This document shows positions 15,904 to 56,345 of a stretch of 64,000 nt of DNA, in pieces. The first letter of the stretch is position 1; the number at the start of each line of letters is the position of its first letter. Source of the DNA: Pachysolen tannophilus NRRL Y-2460 (taxonomy: Eukaryota); assembly GCA_001661245.1 (NCBI GenBank), contig KV454012.1:1600418-1664417 (forward strand), given 5' to 3'. The notes beneath the pieces were generated by a model, which had not been told where the DNA came from, searched no databases, and saw only the letters and a program-made list of their open reading frames with translations. The translations under genes and the position numbers were made by a program.

Positions 15904-17019
15904 ATGCCACCAAAGAAGAAGGTTGAAGAGAAGAAAATTTTGTTGGGCCGTCCGGGCAACAATTTGAAATCAGGTATTGTTGGTCTTGCCAATGTTGGTA
16001 AGTCTACATTTTTCCAAGCAATTACAAGGTGTCCTCTTGGTAATCCTGCAAATTATCCATTTGCAACGATTGATCCTGAAGAAGCTAGGGTTACTGTTCC
16101 TTCTGAGCGGTTGGATGAGTTGTTTGAGTTGTATAAGTCTCTGAAGAAGATTCCTGCTTATATTACGATTTATGATATTGCTGGATTAACTAGAGGTGCA
16201 TCTGCAGGTGAAGGTTTGGGTAATGCTTTTCTTTCTCATATTCGTGCTGTTGATGCTATGTTTCAAGTTGTTAGGTGTTTTGATGATGCGGATATCATTC
16301 ATATTGAAGGTGATGTTAATCCTGTTAGAGATTTAGAAATTATTAGTAATGAATTAAGATTAAAAGATATTGAATTTGCTGAAAAACATTTAGAAGGTGT
16401 TTTAAAAATTACTAAAAGAGGTGGACAATCTTTAGAAGTTAAACAAAAAAAGGAAGAAGCTCTGTTAGTTGAAAGAATCATAGAGATGTTAAAAGATGGT
16501 AAAAGAGTAGCAAATCAAGATTGGTCACCAAAAGAAGTTGAAGTTATTAATACTATGTTTTTATTAACAGCAAAACCTGTTATTTATTTAATCAATTTAT
16601 CAGAAAAAGATTATATAAGAAAGAAAAATAAACATTTATTGGCAATTAAAGAATGGGTTGATAAATTTTCTCCAGGTGATGTTATAATTCCATTTTCTGT
16701 TACTTTAGAAGAAAGATTATCTCATATGGAAACTGATGAAGAAAGAGCTGAAGAAGAAAAAAGAGTTGGCGCAACATCTGCTTTACCTAAAATCATTCTT
16801 ACAATGAGGAAAAAATTGGATTTGATCTCTTTCTTTACTTGTGGTCCTCAAGAAGCAAGAGAATGGACCATAAGAGATGGAACTAAAGCACCTCAAGCAG
16901 CAGGTGTTATTCATAATGACTTGATGAACACATTCATTCTCGCTCAGGTCATCAAATATCAAGACATTATCGAACACAAAGATGAAGCTTCTGTTAAGGC
17001 CGCTGGTAAATTGTTACAA
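15904..17019 (+). CDS. OLA1: Obg-like ATPase Ola1/YchF, main part (broken at the inversion breakpoint)
   Basis: GIVGLANVGKST, ANYPFATID, DIAGL and TGS domain. The natural sequence stops at ..AGKLLQ. Confidence 0.95.
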
Positions 17020-17701
17020 GCAGGATCACATGTAATGAAAATAGGTTGAATTTGAATATTATATTTTGAATTTAATCCATTTAAAATTAAACCTAATTTA
17101 TCTAATTCATCAGGACAAATATCAGGACAATGTGTAAATCCAAAATATAAAATTGAAAATTTTCCTTTAAGATTTTCTTGAGTAAATTGATTACCATTAA
17201 CATCAATTAAATCAAATGGACCACCAATAAGTGGTTTCCCCATACCTCTATTCAGTTCTGCAGTTTTCTGTAATTCTAATCTTTTCTTCTCATGCCTGAA
17301 TAATAAAGTAAAACCAGTACCAAATACAACAAATATTAATAAAGCTTTCCATGTTTTAAATTCAATATTTGAACTACCTCCACCAACTAATTCAGATCCT
17401 GTTTGTAAATTGGATCCACCAATCAGAACTCTAGATAAAGTCTTTTTCTTGGCAGCTGGGGTATCTTTCCTCTTCAGAATTTCATCTTCTAAATGAGAAC
17501 GAATACCTTTATTTTCTTCATCATTTTGTTTATTATTATTATTATTATTATTAACTTCTTGATTAAGTCTTTTAAAAGATGATGAACATATAAATTTTTT
17601 TGATTTTGAATTAATTTCATTTGAAATTGAAAATTTTTCAAATAAACCCTATCTACTAATCCAAACCTCGTAAACATATTCATTCTAGCCATAAATACCA
17701 T
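17020..17701 (-). CDS. SCO1: Sco1/Sco2 copper chaperone, N-terminal part (inverted; frameshift at the A7 run 17595-17601)
   Basis: Presequence, TM segment (TWKALLIFVVFGTG), GKPLIGGPF, YFGFTHCPDICPDEL (CxxxC), ending at FITCDPA. Confidence 0.92.
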
Positions 17702-18048
17702 TCTTTATTAAATTTCTTTAAATATTAGCAATTAAAATAGAATATATATATATATATATATAAAATAAAAAAACAATTCTATATATTATTTCCTATTTTT
17801 CTTACTGAAAAATTTGTATAATGACAAAAATCGGTAAAAAAATCATACACTACAATTACAATTCACAATTACAACTATACGACTACAATTGAGTACAAGA
17901 AATGATTAGACATCTCTATATGTTTGATTGGATATATAAGAAAACATTGAATTAAAATCAAATGATTAAAAACAATTAGATATAGATAGAAAAAGGTTTG
18001 GTAAAAAAAAAAAAAAAAAAAAAACAAGAATTTTTTCTTTTTATATTA

Positions 18049-18117
18049 TTAGTTTTTACCTGCACCTGCTCTAAAGTATATGATATCACCATCTTCAACA
18101 ACATAATCTCTACCTTT
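18049..18117 (-). CDS. OLA1: Displaced C-terminal 22 aa of Ola1
   Basis: Reverse strand reads KGRDYVVEDGDIIYFRAGAGKN*, the conserved Ola1 C-terminus. Confidence 0.92.
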   Translation of the reverse strand, partial: KGRDYVVEDGDIIYFRAGAGKN

Positions 18118-18454
18118 AAGAGATTCACCTGAAGTATTAAAAGAATACCTTTCTGAATTTCATCCACAAATCATTGGTTTAACTGGAACATATAATAATA
18201 TAAAACAAATTTGTAAAAATTTTAGAGTTTATTTTTCAACACCTTCAAATATAAAACCTGGTCAAGATTATTTAGTTGATCATTCAATTTTTTTCTACTT
18301 GATGGATCCAGAAGGTGAATTTATAGATGTTTTAGGTAGACAATATGAAGCCCCAGAAGCAATTGAGAAAATTAAAGATCATATAAATGCTTTTGTTCCA
18401 AGGGAAACAAGGGAAAGACAAAAAAATAGTTGGTATGGATTCTTGTTCAAATAA
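18118..18454 (+). CDS. SCO1: Sco1/Sco2 C-terminal part
   Basis: RDSPEVLKEYLSEFHPQIIGLTG...DYLVDHSIFFYLMDPEG...WYGFLFK*. It has no ATG of its own at the start. Confidence 0.92.
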
Positions 18455-18805: not shown

Positions 18806-19013
18806 TTTATAAAAGAGAAATTTTTTTTTATTTTTTTATTTTTTGACTTTTCTTCCATCATTTATTTTTATTTAATTTTTTTTTTTTTTTTTATAATTTC
18901 AAATATAAAATTTAAAAGATTAGTTTTTGGTTCTTATATATAATAAGGTTTTTGAAAATCTTTTGAAAAGAAGTTGATCAATCAATTAATCAAATATCTA
19001 TAGATATTTTAAT

Positions 19014-22000
19014 ATGGTAAGTATGATTTAATGCGATGAGTTTTCTTTTGATGATGATCTTATTATTATTTATTGATCTTATCGGCGGTTATTATTAAAA
19101 AGATTAATTTACTAATTGTTTTTTAAAAAAAAAAAATTTTAAAATTTTTTTCTAATTTATTTTTTTAATTTATTAAAGGTTCTCTTTAAGCGGAAACCAA
19201 TCGAGTTTGCTCCAACTCCAGATAATCCAGTGGATTTAAATACAGAGGTATGGTATATTCCAGAAACAAGAGAATGGTTTACTGAATATGATGATTATTT
19301 AGGAAGATTGGATTATTATAATACAAGAAAATTTGTTTGTGAAATTACAGGTATAACAGGGTATACATTTTGGGAAGCTTTAGAAATTGAAAAAAAAGAA
19401 ATTGATAAAATTTTAAAATTTTTCCCTGAAGCATGTAAAGAACCAATATTAAGATATGTTCAATTTTCTACAATACCGAGAATTGATCAATTAATAGATG
19501 ATATTTATATGAGGTTTAAAAATGAATTTTTCCCAGGAGATGTTGTTAATGTTAAATTAAATGGTGGTCAAACAAGAGAAAAAGGTATTGTTAGAGAAAA
19601 GGCAAGATTTAATGCTATAACTTTACCAAATGGAACTACAAGACCACCATATTGTCAATATAGAGTTTTACTTTCATCAACAGATAGAGAAATTACAAGT
19701 AATGAAGCTGATTTATCAAGAGATCGAAATTTATTTACTAAATTATATATAAGAGGTTTTATAAAATTAACTGTAACAAGATCAAATAAAATTGGAGCTC
19801 CATGGGTTGTAAAAGATGAATATACTAAAAAATATAGAATTCCAACTGAATTTCCTCCTCATTTACTGATGTTTAAAGAAGATGAAAATTCAAATACATC
19901 TTCTATGAAAAGGAAAAGATCAAGAAAAAATAATTTAAATACAACAAATAATAATAATAATAATCTGCAACCAATTTTCCCATCATCAAATAATAAAAAT
20001 AATAGTAAAAATAATAATAATAATGGTCATACAAATAAAAATAATAATTCTAATAATCAAAAAGAAAATAGAAAGAAAAGAAAAACTGAAGAAATTCCAG
20101 GAATATTTGAAAATTTAAAAGAAACACCTCCTCCAAATGGTGAAGGTAAAGAAAATCCTTTGATGAAATGGAGAGAAGAATGGTTGAAAAGATTAAATGG
20201 ACTAGTTGTTTACATAGATGAAAGTAATCCGAAGACAGTTGATAATGATATGAAAGAAAAAGTAATTCAATTATTTGAATCAGTTAATTGTAAATTTGTT
20301 ACAAAATTCGAACCAGATACAGTTAATTTTATTATAACAAAGAGAACTTATAGTTCAAAAGTTAATTATAAACCAGATGATATTTTTTATAATTTGGATG
20401 AAACTAATAGAAAAGTTTGGCATTATGAAAAAGTTTTAAGATTTTTTAAAAGTTTAGCAATTACAGTAAGAAAAATTCAATTAAAACAAAAAGAATTAGA
20501 AAGAGAACAATGGAAACTGAAATTAGAAGAATTTAAAAAACAACACGCTGCCAATGAAATGATGGGATTTCCTATTGATCAATTTAATGGTAGATTCAGA
20601 CCAATTTTACCTGCAGATCAAGGTGGTTTCCCATTAAATGATCAAAGATATATAAATAATGGGTTATTACCATTATATCCAAAAACAGCAACACCACAAC
20701 AAATTAAAGAATTACAAAAAAGTTTTTTCTCTGGTGGAGCTTTTCCAGCAGATGCAGATTTTAACTATAATAAATTACTTCTGGAATCAAGATCATCATC
20801 TATTCCTCCAACTTCTGCGATAATTTCTTCCCAATTCCCTATGACTAAAGCTGCATTGGTTGACGATTTATCCTTACCTTTCCAATTAACTTCCATGAGG
20901 CCGGGTTTCAAGAAACTAGAAATTCCAGAAATAACAAGAATATCGGAATTATTAGAAAGTTGGTGTTTTTTAAATATGTTTAGAAATGCTTTGACAATAG
21001 ATACTTTCACATTAGATGATTTTATAACTGCTATTAGTTGGAAGAAATCTGATTTAGAATGCCAGTTATTACAAGAAGTTTTTTGTTCTTGTTTGAAATG
21101 TGTATTGGATGATGATGTCAAAGTTGGTGGTAATAACACTCATGGAATAAGTAAAGATGAAAATGCTATTGGTGATGGTGAGCAATATTTAATTTTAATT
21201 CCTCCGAAAGATGGTTATCTTGATCCAATTCTGGATTTGGAAGAAGAAAAGAAGGAAGAATTGAAGCAAGATCAAACTGAAAATGAAGAACCAGTTAAAA
21301 ATGAAGAATCGGCAACACCAGTGGCAAAATCTCAAGAACCGGATACAGAAGGAGAAAAATCGCATGATGAAGGTAAATCCAACGGAAAAAATGAAGAAAA
21401 TGGAACAGAAAATGGAACCATAAACAACAAAGATCAGGATGTGAAGGAAGAAGAAAAAGAAGAAGAAAAAGAAGAAGAAGCAGAAGTAGAAGAAGCAGAA
21501 GAAGATGAAGAAGAAGATGAAGAAGATAATGGCAGTGTTGAAGAAAGTGAGGATTCAGAAATTGACCACAATGCATATAAATTGTTGAATTTCAGAAAAA
21601 TATCATGGCAAGAGAGATTACGTAAAAGAACTTTCAAAGATGGTCAATGGTTAATAATCTTAATAGGTGTATTGTCCTTAGTTGAACATGTTCCAAGATA
21701 TACATCAGATATTCAAGAAATTTTTGAAATTTTAGCACCTTTGGATATGCCAGCTACACCTACTGTCGTTACTCAGCAGTTTTTCTTAGCTTTACCTACT
21801 GATTTGAAGATTAGAGCAATTAATATTTTGTGTGAATTATTAATTAGTGGAATCGTTATTAGAAATCATATTGATAAGTGTGCTGAAGATTCTGCCCAAC
21901 TAAGGAGAGAAAGATTAGAATGCCTTAGAGAATATAAATCACTTATTGAAGAAGCGGGAAACATCAATAAACAATGTCGTGAAGCCATGATAAATAACAA

Positions 22001-23732
22001 TGTCAAATTGCAAGTTTCTCCGGAACCTACTTTAAAGATTGTCAAAGAAAAGAAGAATAGAGGTGGTCGCCCACCCAGCTTGTCCCTTGAACCAACTCCA
22101 GAAGAAAATGCCTTGGCTAAGGTTAATCCTGAATTCCTGAAACTTGTCAAAGAAAGAGCTGAAAAATTACAAAAGGCAGAAGAATTGAAGAACAAACGAA
22201 AATCTTTGGAATTCAAATTAAATGAATTGGATATTCAAAGAGTTCAATATATTGGTAGAGATAGACTATATAATCGTTATTGGTGGTTTGAAAATAATGG
22301 GTTACCTACTTTAAGATCTTCTCGTAAGAAAGGAGGGCAAGACGAAGAAGAAGGAGATGGCGATGAAAACTCATTCATGAACGATGAAGAAGAGGAGGAA
22401 GAGGAAGAAGATGATGATGATGACGATGATATGACTGATGAAACGTATCTTATTGGTAGGTTATGGATTGAAGGACCAACAGATGAGGATAGAACTACGT
22501 TTTTAAATATGAATGATGAGATCATTGAAAAATGGAAAGAAGAATTGATCAAGGAAAAAGAGAAGCAAAAGGAAGAAGTAGATGAAGAAAACAAGACATT
22601 GGAAACGAATATTATTGATGATTCTTTAGCGTCTCAAGAACATTCTGAAACTCTGGAGAGTGGCCATGAAAAAGAATCCGAAGAAAATGATTCAAAAGAA
22701 GGTAAACTCCAGGACAGAAAATTACCTGCTTCATTTGTCAATACTGCTGCTCAAGTTTTCTCTATAAAATTTGAAGGAAATATTATAAAATCATCTGAAA
22801 CTGATCGCTTATTTGTCGATGAATACGGAGCTACAACCACTGATGCTATTGAGTTAAAGCCAGGTCAAAGAAAGATTATGGAAGAGAGTCCTGATCCTTT
22901 ACTAACAAGTAAAGATTGGAGATATATTGATGATATTTCTGATCTTGATAATTTAATCAAATGGTTAAATCCATTCGGTAAAAGAGAAGGTCCATTGCGT
23001 AAAGAATTTTTATCATTGAGGGATAGTATCAGGTACAGCATTGATGCTAGAAGGAAAGCTTTAGGTTTGGATAAAAAATCTGATGATGAAATTAAATTAG
23101 AAGAAAAGATTAAAGAGATTATTATTTCAGAAGATGAAATTGAAAGTGAAGATGATAGTCATGCTGAAAATACCAATACAGAAGATGAAGAAGATGTTTC
23201 TATGCAATATGAAGGCGATGTGGGGTTCAATTCTGGAACTGAGTCTTCTTATTCAGAAGGAACAGATGGAGATGAAGATTCGGAAACTGAACTAATACAG
23301 ACAAGATCAACTAGAAGATCAACACGTAGTAAGGATAATCAAAAAGCTCAAAGAGAACGTCACCATCACCATCATCGCCATCACCAGAATCATGAAAATA
23401 ATCGTCAGTTCAATTTGAGAGAGAAAAAATTAAGAGAAAGAGCAAGTAGAAGGACGAAATTGCAAATGTATCAGAAGGAAAATAAGCGGGCTAGTGGTGA
23501 TAACTTAGTCAATAATTTTACCAAGAAATCCAAGAGACAAAGACTTTTAAAAAGAGAAGAAAAACAAAAGTATAAAGACCAACTAATGGCAAGATTGAAA
23601 AATTTGAAAAATAATAGATCCGAAGTCAGGTGTTTGGAATGGGTTAACGCAAGTGCTATTGAAAAATATGGTACTACCCATTATGAAGATAGTGTAAAGA
23701 AATCAAGCACAAAGGGCAGAAGAAAGAAATAA
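19014..23732 (+). CDS. ITC1: ISW2 complex subunit Itc1 (WAC, DDT, WHIM/WSD); exon 1 is ATG only, intron 19017-19178
   Basis: Spliced start MVLFKRKPIEF, WAC motif (FVCEITG), DDT region (LLESWCFLNMF..IDTFTLDDF) and IGRDRLYNRYWWFE. Confidence 0.92.
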
Positions 23733-26513: not shown

Positions 26514-29500
26514 TCAACTAAGAATATCACTGATAGAAATCTTATGACTATTCTTTCTAGCTTCATATGCCTGGCTTGCAATGTATTCATTATTGACTTG
26601 GGGTTCTTCTTCTTTCTTTTCTTGAACTATATTGTTTGCAATCACTACATTTGGAATGGAATTTTGAATAACATTCAGTGTGACATTTGGAGCAATAGGA
26701 GGAAGTACAACACTGCTATCTCTAGGAGTTGGATCAAATGGCCTATTAACTAATTTGAATAAATCTTTGGCATTATCAGCATAATGCAAATAATTTTCAT
26801 GTTCCTCTTGGAAATTTTTGTTATGTTGTAAAGAGTAACAAGAATAACATAATTTTGTTTCATTTGATTCAAAAAAAATTAATGATCTCGTAGTATTGCA
26901 CTTTCCACATCTATCCTCTTCACCATCATGTTTATCAAGTTCTGATTGCAGTGGGAAATCTGGTAAATAGTTTGAAATTTTACATAAATTTTTATATTGG
27001 AAATATCTATCTCGAATAGCCGTGGAATTAGATGATCCAGAAAATTCAGATCGATCAAATTTCTTGAAATCTTGAACATACAAAGATATCAATGGAAGTT
27101 CCTGTTGTAATTTAACATTCATCCTCTTCGCAGGTATTCTTAATGGCACAAAGTTTGGCGGAGGAAATTGATGGGAATGATTAGAACAAATTATAGTTGG
27201 ACGAGGAATTCCATAAACAAAATCATTAATCTTGATGCAATTTTTATCCTTTTGATCACAAGGTTCAAGCATGAACCCAACGAAAAAATTTGGAGTATCT
27301 AAAATACATGTAATATGAGCTTCAAAATCGCAGCAACAACATTTAACAATAGAACCATTTTTAACATTGCATAGTCCACATCTTTTCTCTATATTTTTGA
27401 ATAAAGTTAAGGATGTATTTTGAATAGGTTCCAAACTGTTAACATCTTCAAACCTAATATCCTCAGTAAATAATGCACAAAGAACATGACACCAAAAATT
27501 ATTAGAGGTTCTTTTCAATGCATCTGGGAATGTGTTAGGATTGCCTGCCAAGGCATTTCCGTAATCAGTTTGTCTTGAAGGGCATAAGCAGCATGAATAA
27601 TAAGTTGATATGACAGGATTTAAATCGTTTGAACAGACATCACATGCCCATTTTTTTTCAAAGCTGAAGCTTCCATCGGATTTGTTATTGTTATTGTTTA
27701 ACTTGATACCATAGCAAGAACTGTGTACGTTTAACCCACAATTGAAGCAAACCAAAATTTCCTGAATACTATCGTTTGACCTGCATATACAACATGGTCT
27801 AGAAGCGGGATCAAACAATGGCAATTTGCTGAAATTAGTTGCTAAAGTATTTGATGTAGCTCCATTAGTATTGCCATCATTGGTTTTGTTTGTTTCAGAA
27901 ACCGAGAACACCTCTGATGATTTAATTTCTTTGAGAATGTCATTCGGTAATATATAATCTGAATCTATATGATTTCCATTTGAATCCAAAATTTTTTTCT
28001 TTTTGTCTTCCAGTTTAACCTTTTTGGATTTCAGTTGCTTTTTAACATTGGAAACCTTATCTTTACCATTGTTTGAGAGTTTAGTTTCATTCTCTTCCTC
28101 TTTTACTTTCTTTTTCAAGGATTTATTTGCTTCCTTCTTGAAATTTAATACTACTTCAAAAGTTTGTTTGCCATTTTTATTACTCGTTGATTTTTTATTA
28201 GGATGCTCTTCTTCAGATTTTTTATCTTGTTCACTAACCAGAGAAATTTTTCTCTTAGCTGAAACACTGCTACCATTACCATTTGATTTCAATTTTTTCA
28301 AATTGTAATTTGCCCCATTAATTATTTTTTTGTTACCATTTCTTGCCTCTGTAATCTGTTCACAATCAACCAATAATTCACTTTCAATTTTTCTTTTCCA
28401 ACCATTACCTCCCCTCTGTTGCTGTTTTCTTAAAACCTCGTTTGGTTCTTCCCAAACAACAGCATATCTTCTCCATAATCTCGCACATCTAAGGCATAAT
28501 CCAGTAACTGTTTCGTTACTATCAGCTGGAGCCTTGTTGTAGCCTGATACTCTGAACCACTGTAAGGAGGTTTGCGTATGACAATGCTTACACTCACAAT
28601 GTCTTTTTCCTTTCAGCAATTTAGAAGTATCATACGAAGAATCATCACCTGAATCAGCAACTTCGTCCACCAATCCATGGCTTGCGTCCTTATTCAAGTT
28701 TTTCAACTTGTTCTTAGCACGGCCGGGATAATTTCCCCATATCAGACGTCCATTTGGAGTTTTCTTCCAAAGGTAATAAAATCGGACAATGGCACCAGCA
28801 GATTGAGTTCCAACCTCCTGATATACAGGATATAACTCACTACCATATTTTTTAACTGCTTCTTCAAATTTTTTAATTTCTTCTGGTGTTAAAGTTGGTT
28901 CTTTTAACGAATCTCTAGTTAATTTCAAAGCTTCTTGGAAAGCTAGGTCTGAATTATAATTATTATCTAACAAAAATTTCAATAATGCATCTATGAAGTT
29001 TGGTGTATGTGGAGACAAATTTAAGCTCTTGGCAATGGGTGAACATCTTTTAATGAAATTCTCAACATTTTCCTGTTGTGATTCTGACTCAGGCTCTTTC
29101 CACATTAAAGTTGATGTATTACCATTCCCTCTTTCTATATAACCATTTGGTCTTTCTATGAGCCATGGAGGATAATCTTTTGGATCAACGTTTTCAAATT
29201 CTTGTGGTATTTTTAAAAAAGGTTGTTTTAATTCAGGTTCTTTTATTGGTGTTGGAGAATTTTTCTTTTTATTATTATTGTTCCCGTTATTGCTAGTATT
29301 ACCACCATTTGATTTTTTCCGCTTGTTATTAAGTTGATGTGATGAAGAAACTTGAGACCCATCACGATCATAATATTGTAAGTGATGTCCATACCACTCT
29401 GGAATGTTACTAGCTTGATGTTTTGAACCTAACCGAGAAGCTGCTCTTGCATATGGGCTATCTTGTAAATCTAATGCATCTTCTAATCTAGCATGTACTC

Positions 29501-30941
29501 CCAAATATCTATAAGGCCATTCTTCTAAATCACGTCTCTGTTTCAAGGTTAATTTTTTGTCCTTTGATAAGAATTCAATTGCTAATAATTCATATTTGGG
29601 CAATGGCTTTGTCTTTTGGTTTCCATCTGGTGTTTGATTTGTTTCTTCAATTTTCTCCAACTTTAACTTTTCTTCTTCTCCTTCAGAGGATGTACTGCTA
29701 TTATCTTTATCTTTATCTTTATATTTTTCTTTTTCTTCTTCAACTTCAGCACTTGAATTTCTTGAATTTGGTTTTATAAAATCCAATAAATCACCTCTAT
29801 CTTCGCTTAATCTTTCTTCTAAATCTTTATTACAACTTGCACAAGACCATCCAAAACCTCTTTGTGGTTTTCTCATTAATGGTGGATCAAGACATAGCAT
29901 ATGATAAAATTTTCCACAATTAACACAAGTTACAGAATCAACAGAAGAGCACCATTGATAACATTTTTCACAATTTTTAGGATCTGCTAATAAATCTTTA
30001 CCACGACCTAATTCAACAAAAACATATGGGAATCTTTTATTTAAAGCTTTATAATAATTTTGAGGTAAATTAGTTAATTTTTCTGTTGGTAATACTTCAT
30101 AGTATCTAATCATATATCTATCATATAATTTATCAAAGAAAAAATTATTTGGTTGTGATTTATATGAATCTAAATCATCTATTTCAGATTTATGTTTTAA
30201 ATGGACTAAACCACGATAACTTTGTAAAGGACAAATATCATTATGCATTGTAGCATATAATAATCTTGAATCATTTGATTTTTGATTAAGATCTCTTGGT
30301 CTATAATACCAATTTATTTGAAACAGATAATTTGATGCATTTTTTGTATTATTATTTTTATCCTTTTTAGTGAACCCTAAGATCCTTCCTATATAATAAG
30401 GTTCTCCAGGAGGTTCACTAATCATATATATGCAATCATTTTTATGTAATTTAAAACCATCCAGCAAAATTAATGTATTATGTTCAACTTTAGCACTTTT
30501 CAAATCCAAGATATTATTAAAAATATGTGATTTTTTAAATGGAGGTTGCCAATTCCAAGGTATAGCATTTTCTTCATTTATAAATTTTTCTTGTATATTT
30601 TGTTGAAGATCAGTTGATGAATGATTTCTTGACTTGTTTGAAGTAGAAGTTGATGATGAAGTAGAAGATGAAGAAGATTTGGTATTACTTCCAGACTTAC
30701 TACTATGTTTCCCATTAGAATTAGCACCAGCACTAGCACTAGCACTAGCACTAGTATTCCCATTAACATTCCCATTCCCATTATTATTCTTATTCTTTCT
30801 TGAAGAAGGCCTTGAAACTTGGTTATCAAAAGGATCATTTTCACCAGTCTCTTTATAATTGATATTTGCACTGGCAGCTTTCCTCTTTGGTCTTGTTGTA
30901 ACAACAGCACTATGACCAGATGTATCCAGCGACGGAGCCAT
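26514..30941 (-). CDS. SNT2: Snt2 chromatin protein/E3 ligase (BAH, PHD fingers, SANT)
   Basis: SEPPGEPYYIGRI BAH motif, several PHD Cys/His patterns, SANT (FEEAVKKYGSEL..IVRFYYLWKK). Confidence 0.9.
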   Translation of the reverse strand: MAPSLDTSGHSAVVTTRPKRKAASANINYKETGENDPFDNQVSRPSSRKNKNNNGNGNVNGNTSASASASAGANSNGKHSSKSGSNTKSSSSSTSSSTSTSNKSRNHSSTDLQQNIQEKFINEENAIPWNWQPPFKKSHIFNNILDLKSAKVEHNTLILLDGFKLHKNDCIYMISEPPGEPYYIGRILGFTKKDKNNNTKNASNYLFQINWYYRPRDLNQKSNDSRLLYATMHNDICPLQSYRGLVHLKHKSEIDDLDSYKSQPNNFFFDKLYDRYMIRYYEVLPTEKLTNLPQNYYKALNKRFPYVFVELGRGKDLLADPKNCEKCYQWCSSVDSVTCVNCGKFYHMLCLDPPLMRKPQRGFGWSCASCNKDLEERLSEDRGDLLDFIKPNSRNSSAEVEEEKEKYKDKDKDNSSTSSEGEEEKLKLEKIEETNQTPDGNQKTKPLPKYELLAIEFLSKDKKLTLKQRRDLEEWPYRYLGVHARLEDALDLQDSPYARAASRLGSKHQASNIPEWYGHHLQYYDRDGSQVSSSHQLNNKRKKSNGGNTSNNGNNNNKKKNSPTPIKEPELKQPFLKIPQEFENVDPKDYPPWLIERPNGYIERGNGNTSTLMWKEPESESQQENVENFIKRCSPIAKSLNLSPHTPNFIDALLKFLLDNNYNSDLAFQEALKLTRDSLKEPTLTPEEIKKFEEAVKKYGSELYPVYQEVGTQSAGAIVRFYYLWKKTPNGRLIWGNYPGRAKNKLKNLNKDASHGLVDEVADSGDDSSYDTSKLLKGKRHCECKHCHTQTSLQWFRVSGYNKAPADSNETVTGLCLRCARLWRRYAVVWEEPNEVLRKQQQRGGNGWKRKIESELLVDCEQITEARNGNKKIINGANYNLKKLKSNGNGSSVSAKRKISLVSEQDKKSEEEHPNKKSTSNKNGKQTFEVVLNFKKEANKSLKKKVKEEENETKLSNNGKDKVSNVKKQLKSKKVKLEDKKKKILDSNGNHIDSDYILPNDILKEIKSSEVFSVSETNKTNDGNTNGATSNTLATNFSKLPLFDPASRPCCICRSNDSIQEILVCFNCGLNVHSSCYGIKLNNNNNKSDGSFSFEKKWACDVCSNDLNPVISTYYSCCLCPSRQTDYGNALAGNPNTFPDALKRTSNNFWCHVLCALFTEDIRFEDVNSLEPIQNTSLTLFKNIEKRCGLCNVKNGSIVKCCCCDFEAHITCILDTPNFFVGFMLEPCDQKDKNCIKINDFVYGIPRPTIICSNHSHQFPPPNFVPLRIPAKRMNVKLQQELPLISLYVQDFKKFDRSEFSGSSNSTAIRDRYFQYKNLCKISNYLPDFPLQSELDKHDGEEDRCGKCNTTRSLIFFESNETKLCYSCYSLQHNKNFQEEHENYLHYADNAKDLFKLVNRPFDPTPRDSSVVLPPIAPNVTLNVIQNSIPNVVIANNIVQEKKEEEPQVNNEYIASQAYEARKNSHKISISDILS

Positions 30942-31074: not shown

Positions 31075-31492
31075 NNNNNNNNNNNNNNNNNNNNNNNNNN
31101 NNNNNNNNNNNNNNNNNNNNNNNNNNNNNNNNNNNNNNNNNNNNNNNNNNNNNNNNNNNNNNNNNNNNNNNNNNNNNNNNNNNNNNNNNNNNNNNNNNNN
31201 NNNNNNNNNNNNNNNNNNNNNNNNNNNNNNNNNNNNNNNNNNNNNNNNNNNNNNNNNNNNNNNNNNNNNNNNNNNNNNNNNNNNNNNNNNNNNNNNNNNN
31301 NNNNNNNNNNNNNNNNNNNNNNNNNNNNNNNNNNNNNNNNNNNNNNNNNNNNNNNNNNNNNNNNNNNNNNNNNNNNNNNNNNNNNNNNNNNNNNNNNNNN
31401 NNNNNNNNNNNNNNNNNNNNNNNNNNNNNNNNNNNNNNNNNNNNNNNNNNNNNNNNNNNNNNNNNNNNNNNNNNNNNNNNNNNNNNNNNNNN
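31075..31492. other. Assembly gap (418 N) flanked by long (TA)n microsatellites
   Basis: N run, with (AT)n at about 31031-31071 and 31494-31529. Confidence 0.99.
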
Positions 31493-54363: not shown

Positions 54364-56345
54364 ATGTTAAGGGGGAAAATGCCGGTTGATAAAGAAGTTG
54401 TATTAGTAGACTCAACAGATTCTGGGAAGAATGGGAATGGGCATTATCGCCCGAATAAGATATCGAAGATAAACTCGTCACAAGATATTTATAACCAGTC
54501 ATCTTCAAATTCCACTCCATTTAATTCTCATGGGACAACTCCATTACCGTTTAATGGGGATGGTGGTGGTGGTGGTGGTGGTCGCATTGGTTCTAGTGCT
54601 GCGGTGAATAGGCTTTTAAGCGCTGAGGGATTACCTTTGCCATCTTCTGTTTCTTCTTCATCAGAGTCAGAGGTAGAATCTGAATCTGAATCTGGTGAAT
54701 TGGGTTCAGGTTCTGGTTTTTCAGAGAAAGGTGTACGAAGTGAGAATAGCAGAGGAAGGAGTGTTTCTTCTTCTGCAGAAAATAGAAATCACGATGAGGA
54801 TGGAGGTGAAAGCGATTCTAAGAGTGGAAGTGGGAGTGTGAGTGGGAGTGGAAGCGAGAGTCTGCTTAGCAATAGCGATGAAGATAGTGAGTTGGAAGAG
54901 CTACATTTTGATCAGGAAGATTCAAATTTAAGTGATAGCAAGAGCAAGGATGATGATGACAATAATAATAATAATAATAATAATGAAATTACAGGTGATT
55001 TTGTTTCAAAAGAGACTACTTCATTGGCTAGAAGCTATTTAAAAGCTAATGGGTCAATGAAATTTTTGGATCGTTATTTACCTGGAACTGCATCAGCTGA
55101 AGATATTTTAAATTTGATTCAGCTTTTAGGTTATAAGCCTAAAGAATTACCTCGGTCTTTATTATTTAATGAAAAAAAATTAAAAAAAATAATGAAAGAA
55201 GTGACGAGGATAAAGAAGAAGAAGATGAAGATTTTAACCAAGTGGATAACGAAAATGCTTTGATGTATTTGATCAAATTTTTACAAAAAGCAATGAATAA
55301 AGTATTGACCATGAGAGTAAGATTACCAGATTTTGATACAATTGAAGCGTTAGTAGATAGTATAAATAATGCATCAAATATTGTGGTTTTAACTGGAGCA
55401 GGTATTTCAACATCTTTAGGGATACCAGATTTTAGATCTTCAAAAGGTTTTTATGCAAAGTTATCCTATCTTGGGTTGGAAGATCCACAGGAAGTATTTG
55501 ACTTGTCTTATTTTAGAGAAGACCCAGCAATATTTTATTCAATAGCACATATGATCTTACCACCAGAACATGCATTTACACCATTACATGGTTTTATTAG
55601 ATTATTACAAGATAAGGGGAAATTATTAAGAAATTATACTCAAAATATAGATAATTTAGAAAGTAATGTTGGAATTGATGCAGATAAATTGATTCAATGT
55701 CATGGATCTTTTGCCACTGCAACATGTATTACTTGTGGGTTTAAAGTTCCAGGTGAAACAATTTTTAAAGAAATTAGAGCTCAAGAAGTACCTATATGTC
55801 CCTGGTGTAAGACTAAAAGATTTAAATTGTTAAAAGAAATTGAACTTGAAGAAGATCTTAATGGCTCTGCAAGTGCATGGAAAACAATGTTTTCTAAATC
55901 GTTTGGTGTAATGAAACCAGATATAACTTTTTTCGGTGAAGCATTACCTGAAAGATTTCATACAAGTATAAAGAAAGATATTTCAGAATGTGATTTATTA
56001 ATATGTATAGGGACATCTTTAAAAGTTGCTCCAGTATCTGAAATAGTGAACATGATCCCAGAAGAAGTGCCTCAAGTCTTAATCAATAAAGATTTGGTTG
56101 GTCATTGTGAATTCGATTTAAGTTTATTAGGCTATTGTGATCAAGTAATTGTCTATCTCTCTGAAAAATTAGGCTGGAAAATAAATCATAAAGATTTTGA
56201 AAAAATTGCTAAAAGCGATCTAAAATGCACTCTGGTTGAAGAAAAAGTTGGAATTTATGAAATCACAAGTTCAAATTACAACGAAGAAGAATTAAATGAG
56301 AAATCAGATATAATTGGAGAAATAGAAGAAAAAGAAGAAGAATAA
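54364..56345 (+). CDS. SIR2: NAD-dependent histone deacetylase Sir2/Hst1, frameshift near 55172-55189
   Basis: [36 protein letters not shown]. The upstream ORF holds the Sir2 N-terminal motif [19 protein letters not shown]. Confidence 0.92.

What the first reader, a model, noticed from the sequence alone, without database searches (positions are those of the whole stretch)
20160..20462. Dbf4 N-motif (BRCT-like) domain embedded in the chromatin-remodeller subunit Itc1
Seen: between the WAC and DDT domains, flanked by Asn-rich and Pro-rich linkers, lies an ordered block of about 100 aa: LMKWREEWLKRLNGLVVYID...KVIQLFESVNCKFVTKFEPDTVNFIITKR...DDIF...KVWHYEKVLRFFKSL. Recalled knowledge: the S. cerevisiae Dbf4 HBRCT reads WQNNWKK..IYFD...F..LGAQITQFFDTTVTIVITRR...DIL...KVWSYEKAARFLKNL and binds Rad53 FHA1. 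The W-x3-W helix, YxD, V..IIT.R and KVW.YEK..RF..L patterns are colinear. I do not know this domain in canonical Itc1/ACF1. Inference: a domain-capture event could link ISW2 directly to the replication checkpoint or origins. This is the best candidate for an undescribed system in the window.
Basis: partly seen in the sequence, partly recalled or inferred. Interest (0 to 1): 0.82.

Follow-up and report, generated by a model that had tools for sequence, protein, structure and literature searches.

The report
Dbf4-type H-BRCT domain inside Itc1
The yeast chromatin-remodeller subunit Itc1 encoded here really does carry a Dbf4-like H-BRCT protein-binding domain, but this feature of the methylotrophic (Pichia-type) yeasts was already published in 2019, and what the domain binds is still unknown.

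Summary
Window 20157-20486 lies inside one 1518-aa ITC1 gene (one-codon first exon, intron, long second exon). It encodes a helix-plus-BRCT (H-BRCT) domain homologous to the N-terminal domain of Dbf4. Evidence: Pfam DBF4_BRCT E 2.8e-7 for the segment alone; a profile of 16 Itc1 domains against PDB gives Dbf4 3QBZ at 3.1e-13; the AF2 model has pLDDT 90.3; the best structural match is 3QBZ, Z 12.4. It is not an assembly chimera.

It is not new.

My additions are small:
- The Itc1 domains form one clade, which suggests a single acquisition.
- A profile search of 1.84 billion proteins finds the fold only in Dbf4, Itc1 and Sir4.
- Separate intact DBF4 genes exist in the same clade.
- An invariant motif, F-x-x-Φ-K-E-T-P-P, always precedes the domain in Itc1.

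Function is inferred only: a partner-binding, possibly phospho-epitope-binding, module that tethers ISW2. The proposed Rad53 or origin link is untested.

The parts
19014..19016 (+). ITC1 exon 1: the start codon ATG only
   Evidence: Read. The ATG is followed directly by GTAAGT. The open frame upstream of 19179 has no ATG. Splicing gives M-VLFKRKP, matching the ortholog consensus MVLFKRK. This is inferred from sequence; no RNA run was available.
19017..19178 (+). Intron (162 nt): 5' GTAAGT, branch-point-like TACTAAT at about 19111, 3' AG at 19177-19178
   Evidence: sequence read. Inferred from splice-signal consensus recalled from general knowledge of yeast introns; not confirmed by RNA.
19179..23732 (+). 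ITC1 exon 2 (1517 codons plus stop). The whole protein is 1518 aa.
   Evidence: Pfam finds WAC, DBF4_BRCT, DDT, WHIM1 and WSD. Orthologs are named Itc1 / Isw2p-Itc1p subunit.
19245..19547 (+). WAC domain (P0002 23-123)
   Evidence: PF10537, E 1.7e-34, 118.7 bits.
20106..20132 (+). Invariant Itc1-specific motif F-E-N-L-K-E-T-P-P (general form F-x-x-[ILVM]-K-E-T-P-P), 8 residues upstream of helix alpha0
   Evidence: Present in 24 of 24 Itc1 proteins that carry the H-BRCT signature (window included), always 95-104 residues upstream of K-V-W. Present in 0 of the 91 other Itc1 proteins. Not seen upstream of alpha0 in 85 Dbf4/Sir4 domains (read by eye). Mean pLDDT is 86 for model residues 1-10. It lies outside the range aligned to solved structures, which starts at model residue 10-14.
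20157..20486 (+). H-BRCT domain (P0002 327-436): alpha0 helix with W331 and W335, then a BRCT core of four strands and helices, with K412-V-W414-H-Y-E-K and R421-F422
   Evidence: AF2 model m8590463bb67d, pLDDT 90.3, pTM 0.82; elements H19-31, E35-38, H48-60, E64-66, E76-78, H98-101, E104-106, H108-117, H122-128. Foldseek top hits are all Dbf4: 3QBZ E 4.9e-6, TM 0.69/0.73. VIA-align: 3QBZ Z 12.4, rmsd 2.8 A over 109 residues; Sir4 H-BRCT Z 9.2-9.7; generic BRCTs Z 7.4 or less. Pfam and PDB sequence hits.
20940..21113 (+). DDT domain (P0002 588-645)
   Evidence: PF02791, E 1.8e-15.
21741..21875 (+). WHIM1 motif (P0002 855-899)
   Evidence: PF15612, E 1.2e-4, 22.1 bits against a 19.1-bit cutoff.
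22239..23009 (+). WSD / D-TOX E motif (P0002 1021-1277, interrupted by acidic low-complexity sequence)
   Evidence: PF15613, E 5.5e-14.

Best explanation
This is the ITC1 gene of a yeast of, or next to, the methylotroph (Pichia/Ogataea/Komagataella) clade. Itc1 is the accessory subunit of the ISW2 chromatin remodeller.

As in the other sampled members of that clade, one copy of the Dbf4 N-terminal H-BRCT domain sits between the WAC region and the DDT domain. It is an N-terminal helix packed on a BRCT core. The copy was most likely taken from a DBF4 gene once, in the clade's ancestor, and DBF4 itself remained intact.

Shown here: homology, fold, single clade, strong conservation, and the aromatic residues equivalent to Dbf4 W112, W116, W202 and F210.

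Inferred (about 0.4): the domain works as its relatives do, as a docking module whose concave alpha0/beta4/alpha-helix surface binds a short and possibly phosphorylated epitope, or a surface of a partner protein. That would tether ISW2 to a chromatin site, or recruit a partner to ISW2. The partner is unknown. The stated confidence refers to the identity and origin of the domain, not to the partner.
For: Identity:
- Pfam DBF4_BRCT, E 2.8e-7.
- PDB phmmer hits Dbf4 only below E 1e-3.
- Profile against PDB: 3QBZ at 3.1e-13, Sir4 H-BRCT at 0.018.
- AF2 pLDDT 90.3.
- Structural matches: Dbf4 Z 12.0-12.4, Sir4 H-BRCT Z 9.2-9.7, generic BRCT Z 7.4 or less (Foldseek).

Conservation:
- 18 of the 23 orthologs I aligned carry the domain.
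- In the 16-sequence domain alignment, W23, W27, W106 and F114 are invariant; these match Dbf4 W112, W116, W202 and F210. E109, K110, R113 and S117 are also invariant.
- Faure et al. call these four aromatics a putative binding cage.

Single origin:
- The 9 Itc1 domains form one clade, SH-aLRT 99, among 97 H-BRCT rows.
- A clade of Itc1 plus the 17 Pichiaceae-type Dbf4 rows is not rejected (p-AU 0.494).

DBF4 retained:
- Komagataella Dbf4 (P0127) and Ogataea Dbf4 (the P0132 cluster) have all three Dbf4 motifs.
- The Ogataea cluster includes locus tag KL936_002541. The Ogataea Itc1 P0012 carries KL936_001059, so both come from the same genome.
- Table S1 of Faure et al. lists both a Dbf4 and an Itc1 for 10 methylotroph species.

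Not an artefact:
- Contigs of runs X3 and X5 (two samples, two studies) are colinear with window 18905-20600 with 0 other letters.

Mode of action by analogy:
- Dbf4 H-BRCT binds Rad53 FHA1 through alpha0 and K200 and docks on the Mcm2 A domain.
- Sir4 H-BRCT is solved with pS/pT peptides of Esc1, Ubp10 and Ty5 (PDB titles). Phosphorylation of the Esc1 motif is reported as critical for binding.
Against: - No partner was identified and no binding was tested here.
- In whole-protein scoring the Pfam hit (24.7 bits) falls below the 27-bit gathering cutoff.
- The position of the Itc1 clade among the Dbf4 domains is unresolved. There are only 108 columns and 49 of 94 inner branches are drawn open. 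The donor is therefore not shown.
- Three of the six Dbf4 residues that contact Rad53 differ in the window, so the best-known Dbf4 partner may not be the partner here.
- I could not read Deshpande et al. 2019. Conservation of the Sir4 phosphate-binding residues was therefore not checked.
- The window's own genome is not held, so a separate DBF4 in this particular organism is assumed from relatives.
Confidence: 0.9

Rival explanations
1. Sir4-like role. The Itc1 H-BRCT reads a phosphorylated short motif on a nuclear-periphery, telomere, centromere or silent-cassette protein. In this Sir4-less clade it would give ISW2 a heterochromatin or anchoring function. Faure et al. 2019 raised this idea.
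For: The fold matches Sir4 H-BRCT solved with pS/pT peptides (Z 9.2-9.7; profile E 0.018). The clade lacks Sir4: the Sir4 and Asf2 columns of Table S1 are empty for the methylotrophs. The paper's discussion proposes it as an entry point to the silencing of the two-MAT-locus system. The basic and aromatic residues K-V-W-x-Y-E-K-x-x-R-F-x-K are conserved.
Against: No partner is known. The Itc1 domain is closer to Dbf4 than to Sir4 in both sequence and structure. In S. cerevisiae the Sir4 cage mutant was not essential for silencing. I could not map the phosphate-binding residues because the paper is not held.
Confidence: 0.3
2. The domain binds the FHA1 domain of Rad53 as Dbf4 does, and so puts ISW2 under replication-checkpoint control.
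For: The residues whose mutation abolishes Dbf4-Rad53 binding (L109/W112, W116/M120, K200, W202) are kept or conservatively replaced in the window: L, W, W, L, K, W (alignment). The best structural matches include the Dbf4-FHA1 complexes 5T2F and 5T2S.
Against: Most of those residues are core or cage residues shared by all H-BRCTs, including Sir4, so they do not discriminate between partners. The polar contact positions E111 and N115 are K and E here and vary among Itc1 orthologs; Y198 is N. The Dbf4-FHA1 contact is weak and also needs a Cdc7 phospho-epitope, which Itc1 would lack.
Confidence: 0.12
3. Origin docking. The domain docks on the Mcm2 A domain of loaded MCM double hexamers as the Dbf4 BRCT does, and brings ISW2 to licensed origins.
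For: The Dbf4 BRCT is required for DDK docking on Mcm2 (PMC8770131). The model matches the Dbf4 chains in the MCM-DDK structures 7P5Z (Z 12.2) and 7PT6 (Z 10.1).
Against: The match is to the same Dbf4 domain wherever it was solved, so it says nothing about the Mcm2 surface. I did not examine the Mcm2-contacting residues. No data link ISW2 to MCM in this clade.
Confidence: 0.08
4. Artefact. The domain is in ITC1 only through a misassembly, a chimeric gene model or a chance match.
For: The same window does hold an assembly problem 2 kb upstream, an inverted 1.1-kb block, plus homopolymer indels.
Against: Contigs of two samples are colinear across 18905-20600. Twenty-three orthologs from several genera have the same domain at the same place. 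The E-values are far below chance. The feature is published.
Confidence: 0.01

Closest known systems
H-BRCT domain of Itc1 in the methylotroph yeast clade (Faure et al. 2019, Genome Biol Evol 11:572, PMC6394760)
   Same: Same protein, same position (after WAC/'downWAC', before DDT), same domain type, same conserved Trp/Phe residues. The orthologs retrieved come from the genera that paper lists (Komagataella, Kuraishia, Ogataea, Brettanomyces/Dekkera, C. arabinofermentans, Pichia; Table S1).
   Different: Only the species differs. The window's domain is 38-46% identical to the 15 orthologous domains aligned and sits behind an unusually Asn-rich linker. The invariant F-x-x-Φ-K-E-T-P-P motif upstream does not appear in the paper's text or in the supplement text held. 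The figures are not held, so it may be visible in the paper's alignment.
Dbf4 N-terminal H-BRCT ('motif N', Rad53-recognition domain; PDB 3QBZ, 5T2F, 5T2S; Pfam PF22437)
   Same: Homologous fold with the extra alpha0 helix, and about 25% identity (Z 12.4, rmsd 2.8 A over 109 residues). The W112, W116, W202, F210 and K200 equivalents are conserved.
   Different: The host protein differs. Itc1 has no Dbf4 motif M (PF08630) and no zinc finger (PF07535). The Rad53 contact positions E111, N115 and Y198 are not conserved. The Itc1-specific K-E-T-P-P motif is absent from the Dbf4 upstream regions.
Sir4 H-BRCT (PDB 6QSZ, 6QTM, 6RR0, 6RRV)
   Same: Another capture of the Dbf4-type H-BRCT by a chromatin protein in a yeast lineage. 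Same fold (Z 9.2-9.7).
   Different: More distant (profile E 0.018). It occurs in Saccharomycetaceae, not in methylotrophs. It has known phosphopeptide ligands; the Itc1 domain has none known.
Canonical Itc1 / ACF1 / BAZ1A family (WAC-DDT-WHIM-WSD)
   Same: WAC, DDT, WHIM1 and WSD are all present in the usual order. A distant animal hit is BAZ1A (P0116).
   Different: Saccharomycetaceae, CTG-clade and Phaffomycetaceae-type Itc1 lack the H-BRCT. Like other fungal Itc1, this protein shows no PHD finger or bromodomain hit.

Membership tests
H-BRCT (Dbf4-type helix+BRCT) domain family | BRCT core of four beta-strands with flanking helices | tested here: met
   DSSP on the AF2 model gives E35-38, H48-60, E64-66, E76-78, H98-101, E104-106, H108-117. 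Generic BRCT domains match at Z 5.8-7.4.
H-BRCT (Dbf4-type helix+BRCT) domain family | Long N-terminal helix (alpha0) that packs on the core and carries the W-x3-W pair | tested here: met
   Helix H19-31 contains W23 and W27. It aligns to Dbf4 residues 102-220 and Sir4 968-1085, both including alpha0.
H-BRCT (Dbf4-type helix+BRCT) domain family | Four conserved aromatics (Dbf4 W112, W116, W202, F210), the 'putative binding cage' of Faure et al. | tested here: met
   W23, W27, W106 and F114 are invariant in 16 of 16 Itc1 domains. Their correspondence to the Dbf4 residues comes from the alignment; the residue list is from PMC6394760 section 12.
H-BRCT (Dbf4-type helix+BRCT) domain family | Significant match to Pfam PF22437 DBF4_BRCT | tested here: met
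   31.8 bits against a 27-bit cutoff for the isolated segment. Only 24.7 bits when scored inside the whole protein. The profile search in the other direction retrieves 89 Dbf4 proteins.
H-BRCT (Dbf4-type helix+BRCT) domain family | Binds a partner through the concave surface (Rad53 FHA1, Mcm2, or pS/pT peptides) | not testable with these tools
   No same-species partner sequence was available because no genome is held. No complex prediction was run.
Dbf4 / Dfp1 / ASK (regulatory subunit of Cdc7) | Motif M (PF08630 Dfp1_Him1_M) and motif C (PF07535 zf-DBF), which bind and activate Cdc7 | tested here: not met
   Neither family is found in the 1517-aa protein at E up to 1. 89 of 89 true Dbf4 hits have motif M. 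The gene is therefore not a DBF4 paralogue; only the N domain is shared.
Itc1 / ACF1 (WAC-DDT-WHIM accessory subunit of ISWI remodellers) | N-terminal WAC domain | tested here: met
   PF10537, E 1.7e-34, full length 1-101/101.
Itc1 / ACF1 (WAC-DDT-WHIM accessory subunit of ISWI remodellers) | DDT domain followed by WHIM1 and WSD motifs | tested here: met
   PF02791 at 1.8e-15, PF15612 at 1.2e-4 (above its cutoff), PF15613 at 5.5e-14.
Itc1 / ACF1 (WAC-DDT-WHIM accessory subunit of ISWI remodellers) | Orthology to named Itc1 proteins | tested here: met
   114 hits, the best at E 4.5e-134. Source names include 'Isw2p-Itc1p chromatin remodeling complex subunit' and 'Imitation switch two complex protein 1'. 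SCO1 lies upstream, as in the fused SCO1-ITC1 gene models P0008 and P0018.

The most novel reading that the evidence does not exclude
The invariant, Itc1-specific motif F-x-x-Φ-K-E-T-P-P lies 8 residues upstream of helix alpha0. It is found in 24 of 24 H-BRCT-bearing Itc1 proteins, in none of the 91 Itc1 proteins without the domain, and not in Dbf4. It could be a proline-directed (CDK/MAPK-type) phosphorylation site that the neighbouring H-BRCT reads in cis or in trans. That would make a phospho-switch gating ISW2 targeting or dimerisation in the methylotroph yeasts.

I found no mention of this motif in the text or supplement text of the 2019 paper; the figures could not be seen.
Probability: 0.08. 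Interest if true: 0.5.

Novelty: already known. Interest (0 to 1): 0.15.

Why it matters
The feature itself matters moderately. It is one of only three known hosts of the Dbf4-type H-BRCT fold (Dbf4, Sir4, Itc1). It marks a lineage-specific rewiring of the ISW2 remodeller in yeasts that lack Sir4 and HP1, including the industrial species Komagataella and Ogataea. How those yeasts silence their mating-type cassette is not understood.

As a discovery it adds little, because the domain, its position and its clade distribution were published in 2019 and the window only adds one more ortholog. What stays open is experimental: the binding partner, and whether the conserved T-P-P motif next to the domain is regulatory.

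Tried and rejected
- Own genome: not held, so I could not look for this organism's DBF4, RAD53 or MCM2. None of these lies in the window (Pfam on 27 ORFs).
- Deshpande et al. 2019 (Sir4 H-BRCT phospho-peptide paper): not held by PMC id or DOI. The phosphate-binding residues were therefore not mapped. What I say about that paper comes from PDB titles, passages in two other papers and my own recall.
- Ty5 targeting hexapeptide: I recalled that it resembles the K-E-T-P-P motif, but I could not verify its sequence. Xie et al. 2001 is not held and two literature searches gave nothing usable. I make no claim from it.
- RNA evidence for the intron: no RNA holder listed.
- Complex prediction: not run. 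No same-species partner was available, and a stand-in would pass by likeness to 5T2F/5T2S.
- CTG decoding: of 7 CTG codons in the gene, only one lies in a conserved column (Leu in 11 of 23 orthologs), so the test is inconclusive. None lies in the H-BRCT.
- Inverted repeats at the borders of the 1.1-kb inversion: only A/T-rich chance pairs.
- tRNA genes in the window: none.
- Earlier findings of this scan: nothing on this genome.
- Donor of the domain: the tree is too short to place the Itc1 clade among the Dbf4 domains. The AU test neither supports nor rejects a Pichiaceae Dbf4 donor (one search did not finish; one search gave p 0.494).
- Follow-up literature: searches for 'Itc1'+'Dbf4', 'H-BRCT', 'Itc1'+'Komagataella' and 'Itc1'+'BRCT' found no functional study of the Itc1 H-BRCT in the held library.
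Full report
**Gene model.**
The finding lies in a long open frame on the + strand. From the first in-frame ATG it runs 19509-23732. The frame is open from 19143, and that upstream part encodes a WAC domain with no ATG in front of it.

The DNA shows an ATG at 19014-19016 followed at once by GTAAGT, a TACTAAT box near 19111 and an AG at 19177-19178. Splicing there gives M+VLFKRKP, which matches the ortholog consensus MVLFKRK. The gene is therefore:
- exon 1: 19014-19016;
- intron: 19017-19178;
- exon 2: 19179-23732;
- product: 1518 aa.

The intron is inferred from sequence only; no RNA run was listed. Pfam on the exon-2 translation (P0002) gives WAC 23-123, DBF4_BRCT 360-426, DDT 588-645, WHIM1 855-899 and WSD 1021-1277. 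The best database hits are named Itc1 / Isw2p-Itc1p subunit. This is ITC1.

**The observation.**
Several independent tests show it is a Dbf4-type domain:
- Scored alone, it matches Pfam PF22437 (DBF4_BRCT) at 31.8 bits, E 2.8e-7, above the 27-bit cutoff. Inside the whole protein the score is 24.7 bits, just under the cutoff.
- phmmer against all PDB chains finds seven distinct Dbf4 sequences at E 5.5e-5 to 2.9e-4. Nothing else scores below 0.15.
- A profile built from the window's domain and 15 orthologous domains (alignment A2) hits Dbf4 3QBZ at 3.1e-13 and the Sir4 H-BRCT 6QSZ at 0.018. I left out P0006, P0011 and P0032 as near-copies of rows already in the alignment.
- AlphaFold2 on A2 gives pLDDT 90.3 and pTM 0.82. 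The model has an N-terminal helix (19-31) followed by a strand-helix-strand-strand-helix-strand-helix core and a short C-terminal helix.
- Foldseek ranks only Dbf4 chains at the top (3QBZ E 4.9e-6, TM 0.69/0.73), then the Sir4 H-BRCT.
- VIA-align gives Z 12.4 for 3QBZ (rmsd 2.8 A, 109 residues, model 14-124 on Dbf4 102-220). The Sir4 H-BRCT scores Z 9.2-9.7 and ordinary BRCT domains Z 7.4 or less.

**Not an assembly artefact.**
Logan contigs of runs X3 and X5 come from two samples and two studies. Both are colinear with window 18905-19935 and 20086-20600 with no other letters. The 151-base Asn-codon repeat between those pieces has the same length in contig and window. One of these runs may be the source of the window's assembly, so they are not fully independent. 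However, 23 orthologs from several genera carry the same domain at the same place.

**Distribution.**
- Among the 114 Itc1 hits, 23 carry the signature K-V-W-[HNS]-[YF]-E-K.
- One more, P0003, the closest relative, has a diverged copy that is visible in the alignment.
- Named carriers are Komagataella, Ogataea, Brettanomyces, Kuraishia, Candida boidinii, C. arabinofermentans and Pichia californica, and Martiniozyma.
- In my 24-row alignment (the window plus 23 of the 114 hits, chosen as the top hits plus named outgroups), 18 of 23 orthologs have the domain. Babjeviella, Wickerhamomyces, Saccharomycopsis, Cyberlindnera and Scheffersomyces do not.
- Pfam's precomputed annotation already lists PF22437 on 9 of the 114 hits.

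**Already published.**
A search for 'Itc1' and 'Dbf4' found Faure et al. 2019, Genome Biol Evol 11:572 (PMC6394760). I read its abstract and outline, passages, section 12 and part 1 of its supplement.

[quoted passage not shown] Section 11 reports three things:
- the domain is retrieved in all Itc1 proteins of that clade, between a 'downWAC' region and DDT;
- it is absent in Saccharomycetaceae;
- it is absent in Ascoidea.

Table S1 lists a Dbf4 and an Itc1 for each of 10 methylotroph species.

Further searches ('H-BRCT', 'Itc1'+'Komagataella', 'Itc1'+'BRCT') found no functional follow-up on the Itc1 domain in the held library.

**What I could add.**
1. Hosts of the fold.
   - The A2 profile, run against 1.84 billion representative proteins, gave 99 hits at E up to 1e-3.
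   - By Pfam these are 8 Itc1, 89 Dbf4 (all with motif M, nearly all with the DBF zinc finger), 1 Sir4 (SIR4_SID) and 1 repetitive protein (P0119, 16 stretches) that I regard as an artefact.
   - At this sensitivity the fold has only the three hosts the paper names.
2. Single origin.
   - I built a maximum-likelihood tree of 97 domain rows: the window plus 96 of the 99 hits. P0119, P0172 and P0188 were left out as repetitive, truncated or split.
   - It puts the 9 Itc1 domains in one clade with SH-aLRT 99.
   - The place of that clade among the Dbf4 domains is unresolved.
   - An AU test does not reject joining it to the 17-row clade that contains the Komagataella and Ogataea Dbf4 (p 0.494). 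A donor within the clade's own ancestor is therefore allowed but not shown.
3. DBF4 retained.
   - Komagataella (P0127) and Ogataea (the P0132 cluster) keep full three-motif Dbf4 proteins.
   - One Ogataea polymorpha genome carries both KL936_001059 (Itc1 with H-BRCT) and KL936_002541 (Dbf4).
4. An upstream motif.
   - The motif F-x-x-[ILVM]-K-E-T-P-P (window 20106-20132) occurs in 24 of 24 signature-bearing Itc1 proteins, always 95-104 residues before K-V-W. It occurs in 0 of the other 91.
   - It is not seen in the 85 Dbf4/Sir4 upstream stretches I printed (read by eye). 14 of those 85 hold any S/T-P.
   - It lies before the part that aligns to solved structures but is modelled with pLDDT about 86.
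   - It does not occur in the paper's text or supplement text. The figures are not held.

**How it probably works.**
The invariant residues of the Itc1 domain include the equivalents of Dbf4 W112, W116, W202 and F210 (with the alignment). Faure et al. describe these as a putative binding cage on the concave surface.

Relatives use this domain for docking:
- Dbf4 binds the lateral face of Rad53 FHA1 through E111, W112, N115 and W116, and through Y198 and K200 (PMC5041073).
- Dbf4 also docks on the Mcm2 A domain of the MCM double hexamer (PMC8770131).
- The Sir4 H-BRCT is solved with Esc1 pS1450, Ubp10 pT123 and Ty5 pS1095 peptides (PDB titles). Phosphorylation of the Esc1 motif is reported as critical for binding.

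I therefore read the Itc1 domain as a docking module that tethers ISW2 to a partner, possibly through a phospho-epitope. This is inference, at about 0.4.

- The window keeps L109, W112, W116, K200 and W202, and has Leu for M120.
- It has K, E and N at the E111, N115 and Y198 positions, and these positions vary among Itc1 orthologs.
- The kept residues are shared by all H-BRCTs, so they do not discriminate between partners.

No binding was tested. No same-species partner sequence was available, and none lies in the window.

**Verdict.**
The feature is already known, so this window is one more ortholog. The functional link to the checkpoint or to origins remains an untested possibility among several.

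**Side observations.**
The window holds an inverted 1.1-kb block that splits the OLA1-like and SCO1-like genes. Contigs of three runs join 17020 to 18118 on opposite strands, which restores both genes. The inversion is therefore most likely a misassembly of this record. The same contigs show one-base homopolymer insertions at 17594 and 17835. A SIR2-family gene appears split at 55263.

Noticed in passing
window 17021-18117 (flanks 15904-18454): An inverted block of about 1.1 kb splits two genes. The OLA1-like ORF (15904-17049, +) lacks its conserved C-terminus, which lies on the - strand at 18159-18049. The SCO1-like N-half is on the - strand (17648-16959) and its C-half is on the + strand (18107-18454). 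Contigs of runs X1, X3 and X5 join 17020 to 18118 on opposite strands, which is the un-inverted form with an intact SCO1. No contig supports the window's arrangement, so this is probably a misassembly of this record. No meaningful inverted repeats lie at the borders.
   Followed up: yes
window 17594 and 17835: Contigs of three runs carry one extra T (after 17594) and one extra A (after 17835) in homopolymer runs relative to the window. This suggests homopolymer-length errors in the window's assembly. Apparent frameshifts elsewhere in the window should be read with care.
   Followed up: partly
window 54364-56345 (+): A SIR2-family gene appears as two abutting ORFs in different frames: 54364-55263 (DUF592 N-part) and 55263-56345 (DUF592 C-part plus the SIR2 catalytic domain). 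It is either a real frameshift or another assembly indel.
   Followed up: no
window 31075-31492: A run of 418 N, either an assembly gap or a withheld stretch, lies just past the 5' end (start side) of the minus-strand BAH-PHD protein gene 26514-30941.
   Followed up: no
proteins P0008 (C. arabinofermentans) and P0018 (Pichia californica): Public gene models in two relatives fuse SCO1 (PF02630) to ITC1 in one predicted protein. This is probably an annotation read-through. It shows that the SCO1-ITC1 neighbourhood seen in the window is conserved.
   Followed up: no
protein P0119: A 1035-aa protein from an unnamed assembly matched the H-BRCT profile in 16 stretches (E 5.7e-31). In Pfam it shows only scattered sub-threshold hits to unrelated families. 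It looks like a tandem-repeat or low-complexity artefact rather than a fourth host of the domain.
   Followed up: partly
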